Below the pieces are notes generated by a model. It was not told the DNA's origin. It did not search any database and worked only from the letters and a program-made list of their open reading frames with translations. Source: a virus. Taken from it: 19,123 nt of DNA. Below are positions 10,414 to 13,076 of this stretch, piece after piece. The DNA lies in the UHGV virus genome UHGV-0246749, one strand, 5' to 3'. Each line of letters begins with the position of its first letter. The first letter of the stretch is position 1. The position numbers were made by a program, and so were the translations under genes.

Positions 10414-11070
10414 TCAGAAAATATCCCACCTGGCATCAACCACAACACCTACTATTTCGCAATCATTGTCCATTTCTATGATTGGATATTGTGGATTAAG
10501 GGGCTTTAGAAACGCCTTTCCCATGTCAGAAATATATTTTTTGAATGTTGCTTCATTGGTAGATTTTTTTCTGGCGATGACGTAACACCCTGAAAAAACT
10601 TCTTTATCTGGGTTGACAAGGATCGACATTCCTTCAGGAAATGTTATTCCTACGGGCGAAGTCATTGAGTCTCCGTGCACTTCCAGCCAGAACCCCCTCT
10701 CACCAGCGTATTTTACAGAATGCCTCCAATTATCCTGATCATACATGTTGTAGTCATCACCAGAAGTTGCGAATAATCCTGCCTGAACCCAGTTAATTAC
10801 AGGGTAAGAGTGTGCTGTGTCTCTCTGTGGGCAGCTCTTAACATTATTTTCCCAATGCTTATCTTTTTCATCTCCGTTCTGAAGCCACTGCGGTGAACAC
10901 CGCAGTGCAGCTGCAACTTTAAAAAGGGTGTCACCGTTGAAACTTTTTGTAAGGCCTTGCTCGGCTTTACTTATTGCAACTCTGGTGACCCCAGCTTTTT
11001 TAGCCAACGCATCTTGTGTTAACCCAGCTTTTTGCCGTGCGTTGATGAGACGTTCACCTAAAGACTTCAT
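10414..11070 (-). CDS. cI: CI-type prophage repressor (N-terminal HTH, C-terminal LexA/S24 peptidase-like domain)
   Basis: Track ORF extends to 11145, but the ATG at 11070 (MKSLGERL...) follows AGGAG. N-terminal HTH 'LTQDALAKKAGVTRVAISKAEQG'; C-terminal 'HGDSMTSP' and 'ARKK' fit the S24 Ser/Lys dyad; 'VQAGLF' contains a possible Ala-Gly autocleavage site. Confidence 0.85.
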   Translation of the reverse strand: MKSLGERLINARQKAGLTQDALAKKAGVTRVAISKAEQGLTKSFNGDTLFKVAAALRCSPQWLQNGDEKDKHWENNVKSCPQRDTAHSYPVINWVQAGLFATSGDDYNMYDQDNWRHSVKYAGERGFWLEVHGDSMTSPVGITFPEGMSILVNPDKEVFSGCYVIARKKSTNEATFKKYISDMGKAFLKPLNPQYPIIEMDNDCEIVGVVVDARWDIF

Positions 11071-11181
11071 TTTTCTTCTCCTCTCATGGCTGTTGATACT
11101 AAAGTAACAGAATTTCTTGATACTTTGGGTTCCTGTGGTTAACATCGTTGGATAACAAAGTATCTGGCGTGAGACTAAAGA
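11071..11181. promoter_or_regulatory. Putative OR/pR/pRM region: three copies of the operator 12-mer and a rightward promoter
   Basis: 'ttgatactaaag' at 11093-11104, 'ttgatactttgg' at 11117-11128, reverse copy 'caaagtatct' at 11156-11165; rightward -35 TTGATA (11117-11122), 17-nt spacer, -10 TAACAT (11140-11145). Confidence 0.5.
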
Positions 11182-11409
11182 ATGACCCTTTATGAAATAT
11201 TAAAAATTCAATTTAAAACCAATGCCGCTATTGGTCGCAGGTTCCCAAAGAAAGGAAGGCCTCGTGGCAGTCAAGGTGTTGGAAAGTGGAAAACGCGAGG
11301 TGTTCCGGAGGATGTTGCCATTCTTTGTCATCTGGATCCGAGCATTCCATATACACACCCAAGTCTAGCGAATACAGAAGATGACAAGCCCACAGGAGAC
11401 CAACAATGA
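11182..11409 (+). CDS. Possible small basic protein in the Cro position; could be non-coding leader
   Basis: 75-aa ORF rich in K/R/G with no HTH I can recognise; weak ribosome-binding site; stop overlaps the next ATG. Confidence 0.3.
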   Translation: MTLYEILKIQFKTNAAIGRRFPKKGRPRGSQGVGKWKTRGVPEDVAILCHLDPSIPYTHPSLANTEDDKPTGDQQ

Positions 11410-12113
11410 ACACCGCAATTTTTAACGGCAAAGCATCCATGACCAGCGTTGAGATCGCAGAGTTGGTGGGAAGCCGACCAGATAGTGTTAAGAGAACTAT
11501 TGAAACACTGGCTAAAAAGGGAATCATCCAATTTCCACAGACTGTGGAAATTGAGAATAAACAATCACTTGGGCCTCGCCGATTTTCTAGCGCGTATGTA
11601 TTCGAAGGTGAACGAGGTAAGCGCGACAGCATCATTGTCGTCGCACAGCTCTGTCCTGAATTCACAGCTTGCCTGGTAGATCGCTGGCGCGAACTGGAAG
11701 AACAGATCCGTAAGCCAATGAGCGAAATCGAAATGGTTGCCGCGATGGCTCTTGAAGCCGTTCGCCAACAGAAACGGATCACTCAGGTGGAAGAAAAAGT
11801 CAGCCACGTTGCTGAAACAGTCGAGCAAATTAAAAAGGGCACTATTCGTGAGGGCTATGCCGGATATCGCCAACTGAAAGCAAAAACCGGTTTGTCAGAT
11901 GATAAATGCCGCAATCTGGTGAACGCCTATCAAATTCCTACAGACACACATGAGTTCATGACGCCGGACGGATTGTTGTCACGTCGCGCAATTGTTGCTG
12001 TGGAACCGTTTATGGCTGCTTTTTATCGGGTTATGGAGGAAGCAGAACCGCGAGGGACTCGCTGGTATCACCCGAAAATGGGGTTATTTCAGGTTATTGG
12101 TTGGCAGCGATGA
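11406..12113 (+). CDS. Rha-like / antirepressor-like DNA-binding regulator
   Basis: 235 aa; ATG preceded by AGGAG; N-terminal 'MTSVEIAELVGSRPDSVKRTIETLAKKG' parallels the N-terminal region of the Rha protein at 12526. Confidence 0.55.
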   Translation: MNTAIFNGKASMTSVEIAELVGSRPDSVKRTIETLAKKGIIQFPQTVEIENKQSLGPRRFSSAYVFEGERGKRDSIIVVAQLCPEFTACLVDRWRELEEQIRKPMSEIEMVAAMALEAVRQQKRITQVEEKVSHVAETVEQIKKGTIREGYAGYRQLKAKTGLSDDKCRNLVNAYQIPTDTHEFMTPDGLLSRRAIVAVEPFMAAFYRVMEEAEPRGTRWYHPKMGLFQVIGWQR

Positions 12114-12136
12114 AAAAAAGCCGGGAGTAACCCGGC
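12113..12136 (-). terminator. Intrinsic terminator oriented for leftward transcription
   Basis: Seven A's (12113-12119) then stem gccggg / cccggc with loop agtaa (12120-12136); on the minus strand this is a hairpin followed by a U-tract. No T-tract follows on the plus strand. Confidence 0.4.
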
Positions 12137-12332
12137 TCACTCAACATCAATAACGGGGAGCTGTTTCGCATAAAACGGCTCCGAAACATCCAAGAACAGT
12201 TCTAAAGATATCAGCAGCTATATGATCATTTCAAGACCAAATATTGATTCTGCAATTCCGGGACGTTACACTGCTCAGGCACCTTATAAAGCGGGTGCCG
12301 GGCGTGGAAACCCGAAATTCAATATAGAGCAC

Positions 12333-12354
12333 AACCGCGCTCATGCGGTTTTTT
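12333..12354 (+). terminator. Weak candidate rightward terminator (tR1-like position)
   Basis: 'aaccgc gctcat gcggtt' followed by T's to 12354; short GC stem, so low confidence. Confidence 0.3.
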
Positions 12355-12525
12355 CGTGTCATGAGCATCGTTACGCCCAAATTATGGTGGGGCGTGCAGG
12401 GCCAACTTCGGTTGGGCCGGGTTCTATGTTGACCGGTATTTCCACCCCTGTACGTCTCACCACCTATATGGTCGTGGAAAGCCTTGGTGGTGAGTTCATT
12501 GAATTCAACATAGGGGCTGTCACCA

Positions 12526-13076
12526 TGACTACTCTCCCAACCCAATCTCACCCTGAAATCACGATTATCAATGGTCGCGTTGTCACCACATCTCTTGCAG
12601 TAGCTAATTACTTTACTAAACGGCATGAGCGGGTTTTAGATAGAATTAGAAACCTCGAATGTTCCGCTGAATTTACTGAACACAATTTTGTGTTAAGTGA
12701 ATACACCGACGCATCAGGCCGCAAACTACCTTGCTATCAAATCACCCGCGATGGCTTCGCGTTCCTTGCCATGGGCTTCACTGGTAAACGTGCTGCCCGG
12801 TTCAAAGAGGCATACATCAACGCCTTTAACCTGATGGAGAAGAGTTTATCAGGTGCCGATGCGTCTGATATGTCAGCTGTCGCACGAAACGCCAGAGGCG
12901 TATACCTGCATTTGCGTGAAATCCATCAAATCTGGACAAGCCAGCTTTATCCAATGCTTAAGGCCGTTGAATCTCCGCTGGCTAGCAAACTGTACGACCG
13001 TGTTGGTGATGCTGTTTTTGGCGCTGCACTTGTTGATTCCAGGCTGAATGGTTCTGACAAGGAGGTTCGCCCATGA
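12526..13076 (+). CDS. Phage regulatory protein Rha
   Basis: 'ITIINGRVVTTSLAVANYFTKRHERVLDRIRNL...ITRDGFAFLAMGFTGKRAARFKEAYINAFNLMEK' matches the Rha family as I recall it. Track ORF starts at 12222, but the upstream 101 codons look non-coding; I take the ATG at 12526. Confidence 0.7.

What the first reader, a model, noticed from the sequence alone, without database searches (positions are those of the whole stretch)
12113..12525. About 410 bp of structured non-coding DNA between the two Rha-like genes, with opposing terminators
Right after the first Rha-like gene there is a terminator oriented for leftward transcription, which fits a short antisense RNA like lambda OOP. About 220 bp further on is a weak rightward terminator in the position of a tR1 analog. 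Between and after them are several hairpins, including a 7-bp stem with a UUCG tetraloop around 12399-12419. The track ORF 12222-12525 upstream of Rha has no ribosome-binding site or protein-like composition and looks like leader.
Basis: partly seen in the sequence, partly recalled or inferred. Interest (0 to 1): 0.5.

Follow-up and report, generated by a model that had tools for sequence, protein, structure and literature searches.

The report
IsrK and C4 phage immunity RNAs
The "structured non-coding DNA" is a known prophage RNA switch: a small RNA (IsrK) followed by a C4-type antisense RNA that masks the ribosome-binding site of the Rha gene downstream, so the finding is real but mostly already explained.

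Summary
The region is not an anonymous leader. Rfam places two curated families there above their gathering scores: isrK (12279-12355, +) and C4 antisense RNA (12380-12467, +). The "weak rightward terminator" is the IsrK terminator. The "UUCG hairpin" is hairpin 1 of C4.

Two unpaired C4 segments, b' (12421-12432) and a' (12439-12445), are complementary to two sets of boxes. One set lies inside IsrK (a1 12304-10, b1 12319-30). The other lies just before the Rha start (a2 12474-80, b2 12505-13, SD 12512-16, ATG 12525). This is the a1/b1, a2/b2 layout annotated in phage P1. Across 17 phage loci these contacts covary strongly.

The same pair of RNAs makes up the Gifsy-1 isrK-orf45-anrP locus, which has been studied experimentally.

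The ORF 12222-12524 shows no amino-acid-level selection (pN/pS about 1, against 0.40 in Rha). Its reading frame is nevertheless kept free of stops in relatives, so ribosome transit probably matters.

The leftward terminator is strong and conserved, and a conserved extended -10 promoter lies about 85 nt upstream of it. An OOP-like function does not fit, and no transcript has been shown.

Verdict: already known in kind, low to moderate interest.

The parts
12113..12138 (-). Leftward intrinsic terminator: stem GCCGGG/CCCGGC, loop of 5 nt, then a U7 tail. It abuts the stop codon of the Roi-like gene.
   Evidence: Found by the terminator scan. In spacers only 70% identical (E. coli C311 and E92), the stem is identical and the loop differs. 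The same motif is a generic terminator in more than 120 unrelated bacterial genomes.
12205..12234 (-). Candidate leftward sigma-70 promoter: -35 TTGAAA (12234->12229), 18-nt spacer, extended -10 TGnTATCTT (-10 hexamer at 12210->12205).
   Evidence: Found by the promoter scan, 9 of 12 hexamer matches plus the TG. In the 70%-identity spacers the -35, the TG and the -10 (TATTTT) are kept, while 8 of 18 spacer bases differ (counted by eye). No transcript has been shown.
12113..12198 (-). Hypothetical leftward RNA of about 85 nt: a conserved 5' block UGUUCUUGGAUGUU, a variable hairpin, then the terminator.
   Evidence: It folds at -28 kcal/mol, z = -3.2. No Rfam family reaches threshold; the best is sroD at 24.5 bits against a gathering score of 50. 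No target was found in the window.
12244..12272 (+). isrK promoter: -35 TTGATT (12244-49), 17-nt spacer, -10 TACACT (12267-72). The predicted +1 is G 12279.
   Evidence: Homology with other phages begins here, at about 12243. The hexamers keep their position in 17 loci even where the spacer sequence differs: TTGACT/TATATT, TTGCCA/TACATT, TTGACG/TAAAGT. In Gifsy-1 the equivalent is TTGACA-17-TATATT upstream of the isrK start used in the paper's numbering.
12279..12355 (+). IsrK sRNA. Hairpin 1 is 12279-12298. Hairpin 2 is 12299-12314, with box a1 (GTGGAAA, 12304-12310) in its loop. A single-stranded stretch carries box b1 (12319-12330). The terminator is 12333-12350 with its U run at 12349-12354.
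   Evidence: Rfam RF01394 scores 61.6 bits against a gathering score of 50. Hairpin 1 has compensatory changes in 4 of 6 pairs. There is a sub-threshold overlap with RF03163 c4-a1b1 at 23.6 bits.
12380..12467 (+). C4-type antisense RNA (equivalent to STnc1160/orf45 of Gifsy-1). The outer stem is 12385-12401 with 12446-12462. Hairpin 1 is 12402-12415 (UUCG loop). Hairpin 2 is 12416-12437, with box b' in its 12-nt loop (12421-12432). Box a' (UUUCCAC, 12439-12445) lies in the internal single strand.
   Evidence: Rfam RF01695 scores 82.4 bits against a gathering score of 45. All stem cells are paired in 17 loci, with 6 + 4 compensatory pairs.
12384..12524 (+). Leader reading frame starting at the conserved AUGG of the C4 5' stem (the orf45 homologue). 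Here it has 47 codons, no stop, and runs in frame into the Rha ATG.
   Evidence: The distance is 141 nt and in frame. The frame is open in 16 of 17 loci. Stops occur in 3 alignment columns in this frame, against 18 and 17 in the other two. pN/pS is about 1. In Gifsy-1 the same AUG starts orf45, which is translated.
12474..12516 (+). Target of C4 in the mRNA: a2 GTGGAAA (12474-12480), b2 TCAACATAG (12505-12513, the 9-mer located; the pairing to b' modelled runs 12505-12515), overlapping the Shine-Dalgarno AGGGG (12512-12516).
   Evidence: The combined a2..b2 pattern occurs once in the window and never in 200 shuffles. The b-box 9-mer occurs exactly three times in 19 kb (b1, the reverse complement of b', and b2), against 0.30 expected. 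The b':b2 helix has 7 of 11 compensatory pairs and is 86% paired, against 37-49% when the partner is slid.
12525..13076 (+). Regulated gene: a Rha-family phage regulatory protein of 183 aa.
   Evidence: Pfam Phage_pRha scores 105.8 bits. pN/pS is 0.40 in frame and 1.08 and 1.31 out of frame.

Best explanation
The interval contains a P1/Gifsy-1-type RNA immunity switch that controls the Rha gene.

A conserved sigma-70 promoter (12244-12272) starts transcription at about 12279. Most transcripts stop at the intrinsic terminator and give the 77-nt IsrK. Some read through and carry the C4-type RNA (12380-12467) and the Rha mRNA.

C4 has two unpaired segments, b' (a 12-nt hairpin loop) and a' (an internal single strand). 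They pair with a2 and b2 just upstream of, and overlapping, the Rha Shine-Dalgarno sequence. This shuts translation. In P1, C4 is cut out of the precursor by RNase P and then acts on the transcript it came from.

IsrK carries a second copy of the boxes (a1 in a hairpin loop, b1 in a single strand). In the nascent read-through RNA these pair in cis with a'/b'. This is the translationally silent 'structure A'. Free IsrK in trans competes for a'/b' and so turns translation on.

Translation probably starts at the AUG in the C4 5' stem (12384). In this window it runs in frame into Rha, instead of ending at an AUGA overlap as in Gifsy-1.

Shown here: family membership, the position of the boxes, their covariation, the promoter and terminator, and the predicted structure A.

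Inferred from P1/P7 and Gifsy-1: processing, repression, activation by IsrK, and translation of the leader.

The leftward terminator and promoter in the 130-bp spacer form a separate, optional module. It most likely makes, or at least stops, a short leftward transcript and so shields the roi-cro-cI side from leftward transcription.
For: Family membership. Rfam scores above gathering: isrK 61.6 against 50, and C4 82.4 against 45.

The pairing is general. C4 is present in 19 of 19 related phage loci. It is preceded by isrK in 17, and by c4-a1b1 in P1 and P7.

The P1 record annotates a1, b1, c4, a2, b2 and the icd ATG with the same order and spacing as in the window.

Covariation over 17 loci:
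- a1:a' has changes on both sides in 6 of 7 pairs and is 97.5% paired.
- b1:b' has them in 9 of 12 pairs and is 88.7% paired.
- The C4 stems are 100% paired.
- The whole-structure covariation score is 0.494, against at most 0.10 for slid partners, and 0 of 500 shuffles reach it.

b':b2 has changes on both sides in 7 of 11 pairs. Its score is 0.729 against at most 0.18 slid, and 0 of 500 shuffles reach it.

Cognate against non-cognate duplex energies:
- b' with downstream: -14.1 against -7.2 kcal/mol.
- b' with IsrK: -12.5 against -6.5.
- a': -9.6 against -6.1 and -6.8.
- The 19 loci hold 12 different a' and 16 different b' boxes.

The b-box 9-mer occurs only at b1, b' and b2 in the 19 kb.

Gifsy-1 itself scores as isrK + C4 + c4-a1b1. 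The paper's compensatory mutants G28/C162 and G31/C159 fall in a1:a'. IsrK in trans raises anrP translation more than 100-fold.

Nucleotides 1-180 of the window transcript fold into the same 'structure A' topology as Gifsy-1.
Against: - Nothing in this window has been tested experimentally.
- The downstream gene is a Rha protein, unrelated to Gifsy-1 AnrP (E = 3.2) and to P1 Icd/Ant. The biological output (antirepression?) is therefore assumed.
- The AUGA coupling that Gifsy-1 relies on is absent here.
- The 250-nt transcript is predicted to prefer a free-standing C4 fold over structure A, so the balance of conformers may differ.
- The P1 model (C4 as repressor) and the Gifsy-1 model (IsrK as activator via orf45) have not been reconciled experimentally. 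In Gifsy-1, constitutive STnc1160 did not counteract IsrK.
- The genomic context differs: the early right operon here, downstream of Q in Gifsy-1.
Confidence: 0.85

Rival explanations
1. A leftward OOP-like antisense RNA ends at 12113. A rightward tR1-like terminator at about 12354 makes Rha expression depend on phage antitermination. The rest is passive leader.
For: - The leftward terminator is strong and conserved.
- A conserved extended -10 promoter lies about 85 nt upstream of it.
- The candidate RNA folds better than shuffles, z = -3.2.
- Read-through of the rightward terminator is indeed what makes the mRNA in Gifsy-1.
- P_R transcripts coming through roi would also meet this terminator.
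Against: - The rightward terminator belongs to a discrete sRNA gene with its own promoter, and it scores as isrK.
- It is an intrinsic terminator, not a Rho-dependent tR1.
- Control by base pairing is supported by three-way covariation.
- A leftward RNA would overlap the roi gene only at its stop codon, so it cannot act like OOP on cII.
- The spacer with the leftward terminator is present in only 222 E. coli genomes, against 1211 with the isrK-C4 module. It is therefore dispensable for the switch.
Confidence: 0.12
2. The RefSeq reading. 12222-13076 is one genuine 284-aa protein with an N-terminal 'Ash' domain fused to Rha, and the RNA motifs are incidental.
For: - The translation of 12222-12524 hits Pfam Phage_ASH at 33.7 bits, above the cutoff of 26. 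So do six annotated long ORFs in other phages.
- The frame has no stop from isrK to the gene ATG in 15 of 17 isrK-type loci (15 of all 19 compared), and from the C4 AUG to the gene ATG in 16 of 17.
- The isrK-to-C4 spacings (98, 101, 110 nt) differ by multiples of 3.
- Stop-bearing alignment columns number 3, 18 and 17 for the three frames.
- RefSeq annotates the CDS from 12222.
Against: - pN/pS is 1.02 (isrK part) and 0.91 (C4 part) in that frame, no different from the other two frames. The Rha CDS gives 0.40 in the same loci.
- There is no codon-position periodicity.
- Substitutions come as base-pair compensations.
- No Shine-Dalgarno sequence precedes ATG 12222, and that ATG lies upstream of the isrK promoter.
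- In Gifsy-1, P88 and NAR688 the leader frame differs from the gene frame.
- The authors of PMC4825925 report that the orf45 nucleotide sequence is conserved while its amino-acid sequence varies.

A frame kept open without amino-acid constraint fits 'ribosomes must pass through', not a folded domain.
Confidence: 0.05
3. The module is a decayed remnant in a defective prophage, with no current function.
For: - The window's host strain and the state of the prophage are unknown.
- A neighbouring small ORF is marked as frameshifted in the matching genome, which is 100% identical over the 441-bp query.
Against: - All boxes remain complementary.
- The promoter, the terminator and both Rfam scores are intact.
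- Sequences identical over the 441-bp query are present in many E. coli genomes; 43 records are at least 99% identical.
Confidence: 0.05

Closest known systems
Gifsy-1 isrK-orf45(STnc1160)-anrP locus of Salmonella (Hershko-Shalev et al. 2016, PMC4825925)
   Same: - The same two Rfam families in the same order and spacing.
- A promoter, a three-hairpin IsrK and an intrinsic terminator.
- a1 in the loop of hairpin 2, pairing with a' (the paper's helix b-I).
- The leader AUG sits in the C4 5' stem.
- The predicted 'structure A' is the same.
   Different: - The a and b box sequences differ, giving another specificity.
- The leader ORF runs in frame into the gene here. In Gifsy-1 it ends at an AUGA overlap.
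- The downstream gene here is Rha, unrelated to AnrP.
- No isrJ lies downstream.
- The window's module sits in the early operon between roi and the replication genes, not downstream of antQ.
immI region of phages P1 and P7: c4 antisense RNA with a1/b1 and a2/b2 sites controlling icd-ant
   Same: - A C4 RNA with a' and b'.
- Targets a2/b2 just after C4 and at the RBS of the first downstream gene. b2 ends 11 nt before the ATG in both.
- An upstream a1/b1 copy.
- All elements lie on one transcript.
- Specificity is set by the box sequence, as in P1/P7 heteroimmunity.
   Different: - P1 and P7 carry the a1/b1 boxes in the c4-a1b1 motif, which is not Rfam's isrK model and has no hairpin followed by a U run at the corresponding place. 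Here the boxes sit in a discrete, terminated sRNA.
- The P1 promoter has a C1 operator. The promoter here is conserved among heteroimmune lambdoid phages.
- The regulated gene here is Rha, not icd-ant.
P4 immunity: CI RNA with seqA / seqC (cited as a structural analogue in PMC4825925)
   Same: A processed antisense RNA flanked by upstream and downstream complementary sequences on the same transcript.
   Different: According to PMC4825925, P4 CI acts by causing premature transcription termination. No such role was tested here.
Lambda OOP RNA
   Same: A short leftward transcript unit (promoter-like site plus intrinsic terminator) placed just downstream of the gene that follows cro.
   Different: By my own knowledge of lambda, OOP overlaps the 3' end of cII by tens of nucleotides and acts as an antisense to it. 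Here the overlap is at most the stop codon. There is no sequence or Rfam similarity.

Membership tests
C4 antisense RNA (Rfam RF01695) | The covariance-model score reaches the curated gathering score. | tested here: met
   82.4 bits against 45, over the full model 1-87, at 12380-12467 on the + strand.
C4 antisense RNA (Rfam RF01695) | A long closing stem enclosing two hairpins, supported by covariation. | tested here: met
   100% of cells are paired in 17 loci. Compensatory changes occur in 6 of 17 outer-stem pairs and in 4 of 5 hairpin-1 pairs.
C4 antisense RNA (Rfam RF01695) | Unpaired a' and b' are complementary to a2/b2 at the ribosome-binding site of the next gene on the same strand. | tested here: met
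   a2 is at 12474-80. b2 is at 12505-13 and overlaps the SD at 12512-16. The b':b2 pairing covaries.
C4 antisense RNA (Rfam RF01695) | A second, upstream copy of the targets (a1/b1). | tested here: met
   a1 is at 12304-10 and b1 at 12319-30, both inside IsrK. Changes on both sides occur in 6 of 7 and 9 of 12 pairs.
C4 antisense RNA (Rfam RF01695) | Excised from the precursor by RNase P, and represses translation of the downstream gene. | not testable with these tools
   Known for P1 and P7 (Hartmann et al. 1995, as cited in PMC2190699). It needs an experiment here.
isrK (Rfam RF01394) | The covariance-model score reaches the gathering score. | tested here: met
   61.6 bits against 50, over the full model 1-77, at 12279-12355.
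isrK (Rfam RF01394) | Its own promoter and a Rho-independent terminator. | tested here: met
   TTGATT-17-TACACT lies 6 nt before +1, and the hexamer positions are conserved in 17 loci. The terminator is at 12333-12354. Promoter activity itself was not tested.
isrK (Rfam RF01394) | The middle part of IsrK pairs with the 3' half of the downstream orf45/C4 element (structure A, helix b-I). | tested here: met
   This is the predicted MFE fold of nucleotides 1-180, and it is supported by covariation.
isrK (Rfam RF01394) | A leader ORF (orf45) whose stop overlaps the start of the regulated gene (AUGA), giving translational coupling. | tested here: not met
   AUG 12384 lies 141 nt from ATG 12525, in the same frame, with no stop between them. 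In Gifsy-1 the ORF has 45 codons ending in a TGA that overlaps the ATG.
isrK (Rfam RF01394) | The short RNA activates translation of the long transcript in trans, and binds Hfq. | not testable with these tools
   Shown only for Gifsy-1.
c4-a1b1 motif (Rfam RF03163) | The covariance-model score reaches the gathering score. | tested here: not met
   23.6 bits against 46.7 at 12266-12318. Gifsy-1, P1, P7 and NAR688 do pass. The window carries the a1/b1 boxes but is modelled better by isrK.
Lambda OOP-type antisense RNA | The leftward RNA overlaps, and is antisense to, the 3' coding part of the upstream regulatory gene. | tested here: not met
   The terminator's U tract ends at 12113, the last base of the stop codon, so there is no coding overlap.
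Lambda tR1-type terminator | A Rho-dependent terminator overridden by an N/nut complex. | tested here: inconclusive
   The element is a hairpin followed by a U run, that is, intrinsic. nut sites and the phage antiterminator were not examined.
Pfam Phage_ASH (PF10554) protein family | The HMM score is above the cutoff, and the sequence behaves as a protein (purifying selection on amino acids). | tested here: not met
   The score is met: 33.7 against 26. But pN/pS is about 1 in all frames, against 0.40 for Rha. The 107-position profile maps exactly onto the translated isrK-C4-a2/b2 stretch.

The most novel reading that the evidence does not exclude
The isrK-C4 RNA module sits inside a reading frame that selection keeps free of stop codons but otherwise leaves unconstrained. 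This would mean that ribosome transit through the two RNA genes is itself part of the switch.

In this window the leader frame is fused to Rha. Two routes of expression would then exist:
- Transcripts from the isrK promoter, gated by C4, would be translated from AUG 12384 or AUG 12525.
- P_R read-through transcripts would be translated from further upstream (ATG 12222 here; the end of the preceding gene in other phages). The translating ribosomes would melt the RNA structures and bypass the immunity.

In addition, the spacer would encode a new Hfq-type leftward sRNA of about 85 nt with a conserved 5' seed.
Probability: 0.3. Interest if true: 0.5.

Novelty: already known. Interest (0 to 1): 0.25.

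Why it matters
For annotation. RefSeq, in the matching genome inspected, and several phage records merge these two RNA genes into an 'Ash family' or 'Rha family' CDS. The Pfam Ash family appears to model the translated RNA locus. Marking the RNAs correctly would change how a module found in about a fifth of complete E. coli genomes (1211 of 5426) is read.

For biology. The comparison places the P1/P7 C4 story and the Gifsy-1 IsrK story in one scheme. IsrK is the carrier of the a1/b1 boxes, and the a and b boxes reassort independently (18 combinations in 19 loci). This predicts a combinatorial specificity code for cross-talk between co-resident prophages.

None of this is a new kind of mechanism.

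Tried and rejected
(1) A third 'b0' target near the leftward terminator (TCAACAT at 12140-12146). It does not change in PhiR49_2 or Stx2d_112808, which have other b boxes. In C311 (b = GCTCAAGG) it reads TCAACGT, which does not match that b box either. It is a chance match.

(2) The perfect 12+12 palindrome inside roi (11529-11553), which contains GTGGAAA/TTTCCAC, as a further C4 target. The roi stretch compared is identical in Stx1_14040, which goes with a different a box. It is unrelated to C4.

(3) A target in the window for the conserved 5' block of the putative leftward RNA. Only matches with 3 mismatches were found, no more than expected by chance.

(4) A genome-wide scan for the leftward terminator motif. 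It hit more than 120 unrelated bacteria. The motif is a generic terminator and says nothing about context.

(5) A viral-contig pattern scan for C4. It gave only 4 loci and was not used further.

(6) Rfam matches on the minus strand (sroD, PrrF, SorX/Y). All are far below their gathering scores and are driven by the terminator hairpin.

(7) RNAcofold of IsrK with C4, and of C4 with its target. It gave no gain, because loop-loop (pseudoknot-type) contacts are outside the model.

(8) MAFFT put the a2 box out of register between groups of loci. a2 covariation was therefore judged only from the cognate against non-cognate energies and by eye.

(9) No tRNA or tmRNA gene in the window.
Full report
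**What is in the sequence**

The window is the immunity and early region of a lambdoid prophage. From left to right it holds:
- a LexA/CI-type repressor on the minus strand (10414-11145);
- a small cro-position ORF (11182-11409);
- a 235-aa Roi-like gene (11406-12113);
- the interval in question;
- a Rha-family gene starting at ATG 12525;
- small ORFs and then replication genes.

- a leftward hairpin followed by a U7 tail at 12138->12113;
- a rightward hairpin followed by a U run at 12333-12354;
- a UUCG hairpin at 12402-12415.

The rightward transcript 12279-12540 folds far better than shuffled versions (z = -4.95).

**Identity**

Rfam, at its curated thresholds, finds two families and nothing else in the 19 kb:
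- isrK at 12279-12355, scoring 61.6 bits against a gathering score of 50;
- C4 antisense RNA at 12380-12467, scoring 82.4 bits against 45.

The 'UUCG hairpin' is hairpin 1 of C4.

Homology with other phages begins abruptly at about 12243. That is the -35 hexamer of a promoter, TTGATT-17-TACACT, placed 6 nt before the first base of IsrK. In 17 related loci the hexamers stay in place while the spacer sequence varies.

**Anatomy of the switch**

C4 has two unpaired segments: the 12-nt loop of hairpin 2 (b', 12421-12432) and an internal single strand (a', 12439-12445). Each is complementary to two places:

| Box | Upstream copy, inside IsrK | Downstream copy, in the mRNA |
|---|---|---|
| a | a1 GTGGAAA, 12304-10, in the loop of hairpin 2 | a2 GTGGAAA, 12474-80 |
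| b | b1, 12319-30, in the single strand before the terminator | b2 TCAACATAG, 12505-13 |

- b2 overlaps the Shine-Dalgarno sequence AGGGG (12512-16) of ATG 12525.
- The 9-mer TCAAYATAG occurs exactly three times in the window, at b1, b' (as its reverse complement) and b2. The expected number is 0.30, and no shuffle out of 200 reaches three.
- The curated P1 record annotates a1, b1, c4, a2, b2 and the icd start in the same order and with the same spacings.

**Comparative test**

I fetched 19 phage loci: P1, P7, N15, SfV, ST64B, mEp460, cdtI, P88, several Stx phages, Hafnia phage yong2 and Klebsiella phage NAR688.
- All 19 have C4.
- 17 have isrK 21-35 nt upstream of it.
- P1 and P7 have Rfam's c4-a1b1 motif there instead.

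These loci carry 12 different a' and 16 different b' sequences, in 18 combinations. The a and b boxes reassort: Stx2c_JNE072859 has this window's b box together with the a box of PhiR49_2.

On an alignment of 17 loci:

| Helix | Pairs changed on both sides | Cells paired |
|---|---|---|
| a1:a' | 6 of 7 | 97.5% |
| b1:b' | 9 of 12 | 88.7% |
| b':b2 | 7 of 11 | 86% (37-49% with slid partners) |
| C4 stems | 6 of 17 outer, 4 of 5 hairpin 1 | 100% |

- The whole-structure covariation score is 0.494, against at most 0.10 for slid partners. No shuffle out of 500 reaches it.
- Cognate duplexes are about 6-7 kcal/mol (b boxes) and about 3 kcal/mol (a boxes) more stable than non-cognate ones.

The base-pairing scheme is therefore supported by evolution, not only by this one sequence.

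**Link to experiments**

The Gifsy-1 prophage locus studied by Hershko-Shalev et al. (PMC4825925) scores as isrK + C4 + c4-a1b1.
- Their compensatory mutant pairs G28/C162 and G31/C159 fall in a1:a'.
- Their orf45 starts at the conserved AUGG at the base of the C4 stem.
- They show that the isrK promoter drives the downstream gene, and that the read-through RNA is translationally silent ('structure A').
- IsrK in trans raises anrP translation more than 100-fold, through translation of orf45.
- A processed RNA, STnc1160, arises downstream of IsrK. They liken it to P4 CI RNA, and IsrK to P4 seqA.

Nucleotides 1-180 of the window transcript are predicted to fold into the same structure A, with a1:a' and b1:b' paired in cis. 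At 250 nt the free-standing C4 fold wins.

For P1 and P7, C4 is the antisense repressor of icd-ant and is matured by RNase P.

The most likely mechanism here combines the two. C4 masks the Rha ribosome-binding site through a2/b2. IsrK competes for a'/b' through a1/b1.

**Is 12222-12524 translated?**

Evidence against an ordinary protein:
- pN/pS is 1.02 (isrK part) and 0.91 (C4 part) in the ORF's frame, the same as in the other two frames. The adjacent Rha CDS in the same seven loci gives 0.40 in frame and 1.08 and 1.31 out of frame.
- There is no codon-position periodicity.
- ATG 12222 has no Shine-Dalgarno sequence and lies upstream of the isrK promoter.
- The Pfam 'Ash' hit (33.7 bits) is explained by conservation at the nucleotide level. 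The 107-position profile maps exactly onto the translated isrK-C4-a2/b2 stretch in six annotated long ORFs.

Evidence that ribosomes do pass through:
- The frame of the C4 AUG is open as far as the gene start in 16 of 17 loci.
- Stops occur at 3 alignment columns in that frame, all of them in N15 or NAR688. The other two frames have 18 and 17 such columns.
- The isrK-to-C4 spacings differ by multiples of three.
- orf45 is translated in Gifsy-1.

In this window the leader frame from AUG 12384 continues into Rha without a stop. In Gifsy-1 it ends in an AUGA overlap. I read this as a frame that must stay open for ribosome transit, not as a folded domain.

**The spacer and the leftward terminator**

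The stretch 12114-12243 occurs in 222 E. coli genomes, always between a Roi-like gene and the isrK module. The module itself occurs in 1211 genomes. The spacer goes with several different a/b specificities, so it is a separate, optional unit.

In spacers only 70% identical:
- the terminator stem is unchanged and its loop differs;
- a minus-strand promoter is kept (TTGAAA, 18 nt, TGnTATCTT or TATTTT) although 8 of 18 spacer bases differ;
- a block at the predicted 5' end of the RNA (UGUUCUUGGAUGUU) is conserved;
- the middle hairpin is not conserved.

The candidate 86-nt RNA folds with z = -3.2. No Rfam family matches it, and I found no target for it. It cannot work like OOP, because it would overlap roi only at the stop codon. 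I rate the existence of a leftward transcript at roughly one in three. At the least, the terminator would shield roi, cro and cI from leftward transcription.

**Verdict**

The element belongs to two described RNA families whose mechanism has been worked out in P1/P7 and Gifsy-1, so in kind it is already known.

The points of residual interest are:
- the in-frame leader-Rha fusion;
- the frame that is open but unconstrained;
- the 'Ash' protein family, which appears to be a translated RNA locus;
- the independent reassortment of the a and b boxes;
- the untested leftward unit.

Noticed in passing
window 12267-12501; L009 1177-2328, L016 1324-2007 and others: Pfam family Phage_ASH (PF10554, 107 positions) aligns exactly with the conceptual translation of the isrK-C4-a2/b2 stretch. 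RefSeq and GenBank then call these stretches 'ash family protein', or fuse them to Rha or Ant genes. No ncRNA is annotated in the records inspected. The stretch shows no amino-acid-level selection, so the family probably models a translated RNA locus.
   Followed up: partly
window 12279-12524 and the 17-locus alignment A1: One reading frame through both RNA genes is almost free of stops in relatives: 3 stop-bearing columns against 18 and 17 in the other frames. Indels between isrK and C4 are multiples of 3. Yet pN/pS is about 1. The constraint seems to be on openness of the frame, not on the peptide.
   Followed up: partly
window 11529-11553 (inside the Roi-like gene): A perfect 12+1+12 palindrome, CAATTTCCACAG A CTGTGGAAATTG. 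At the same place, other roi variants have shorter palindromes of a different sequence: CCTCAA A TTGAGG in PhiR49_2 and CGCCA A TGGCG in Stx2d_112808. This could be a conserved hairpin or a protein-binding site inside the coding sequence. It is not linked to the C4 a box.
   Followed up: partly
window, whole: The heptamer GTGGAAA, counted together with its complement, occurs 10 times against 3.2 expected. Only 1 of 200 shuffles reaches 10. Three copies belong to the C4 system and two to the roi palindrome. The other five (11286, 13861, 14126, 16998, 18815) are unexplained.
   Followed up: no
L010 (Stx2c_JNE072859) against the window and L001: The a and b specificity boxes reassort independently. 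L010 has this window's b box together with the a box of PhiR49_2. Many phages share only the promoter and the first 40-60 nt of isrK with the window, which points to recombination breakpoints inside isrK.
   Followed up: partly
L014 (P88), L022 (N15), L023 (P1), L027 (Gifsy-1): The same RNA module sits in front of differently annotated first genes: Rha, Ant, icd-ant, a P88 'derepression protein' and N15 gene 32. It also occurs at different places in the phage map, the early operon here and downstream of Q in Gifsy-1. Only the window's Rha and Gifsy-1 AnrP were compared directly, and they are not homologous (E = 3.2).
   Followed up: partly
window 12231-12626, minus strand: A 131-aa ORF runs antisense to isrK-C4 and to the start of Rha. 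P88 has an annotated minus-strand 'hypothetical protein' over the same RNAs. These are probably artefacts of the G+C-rich structured RNA, but this was not tested.
   Followed up: no
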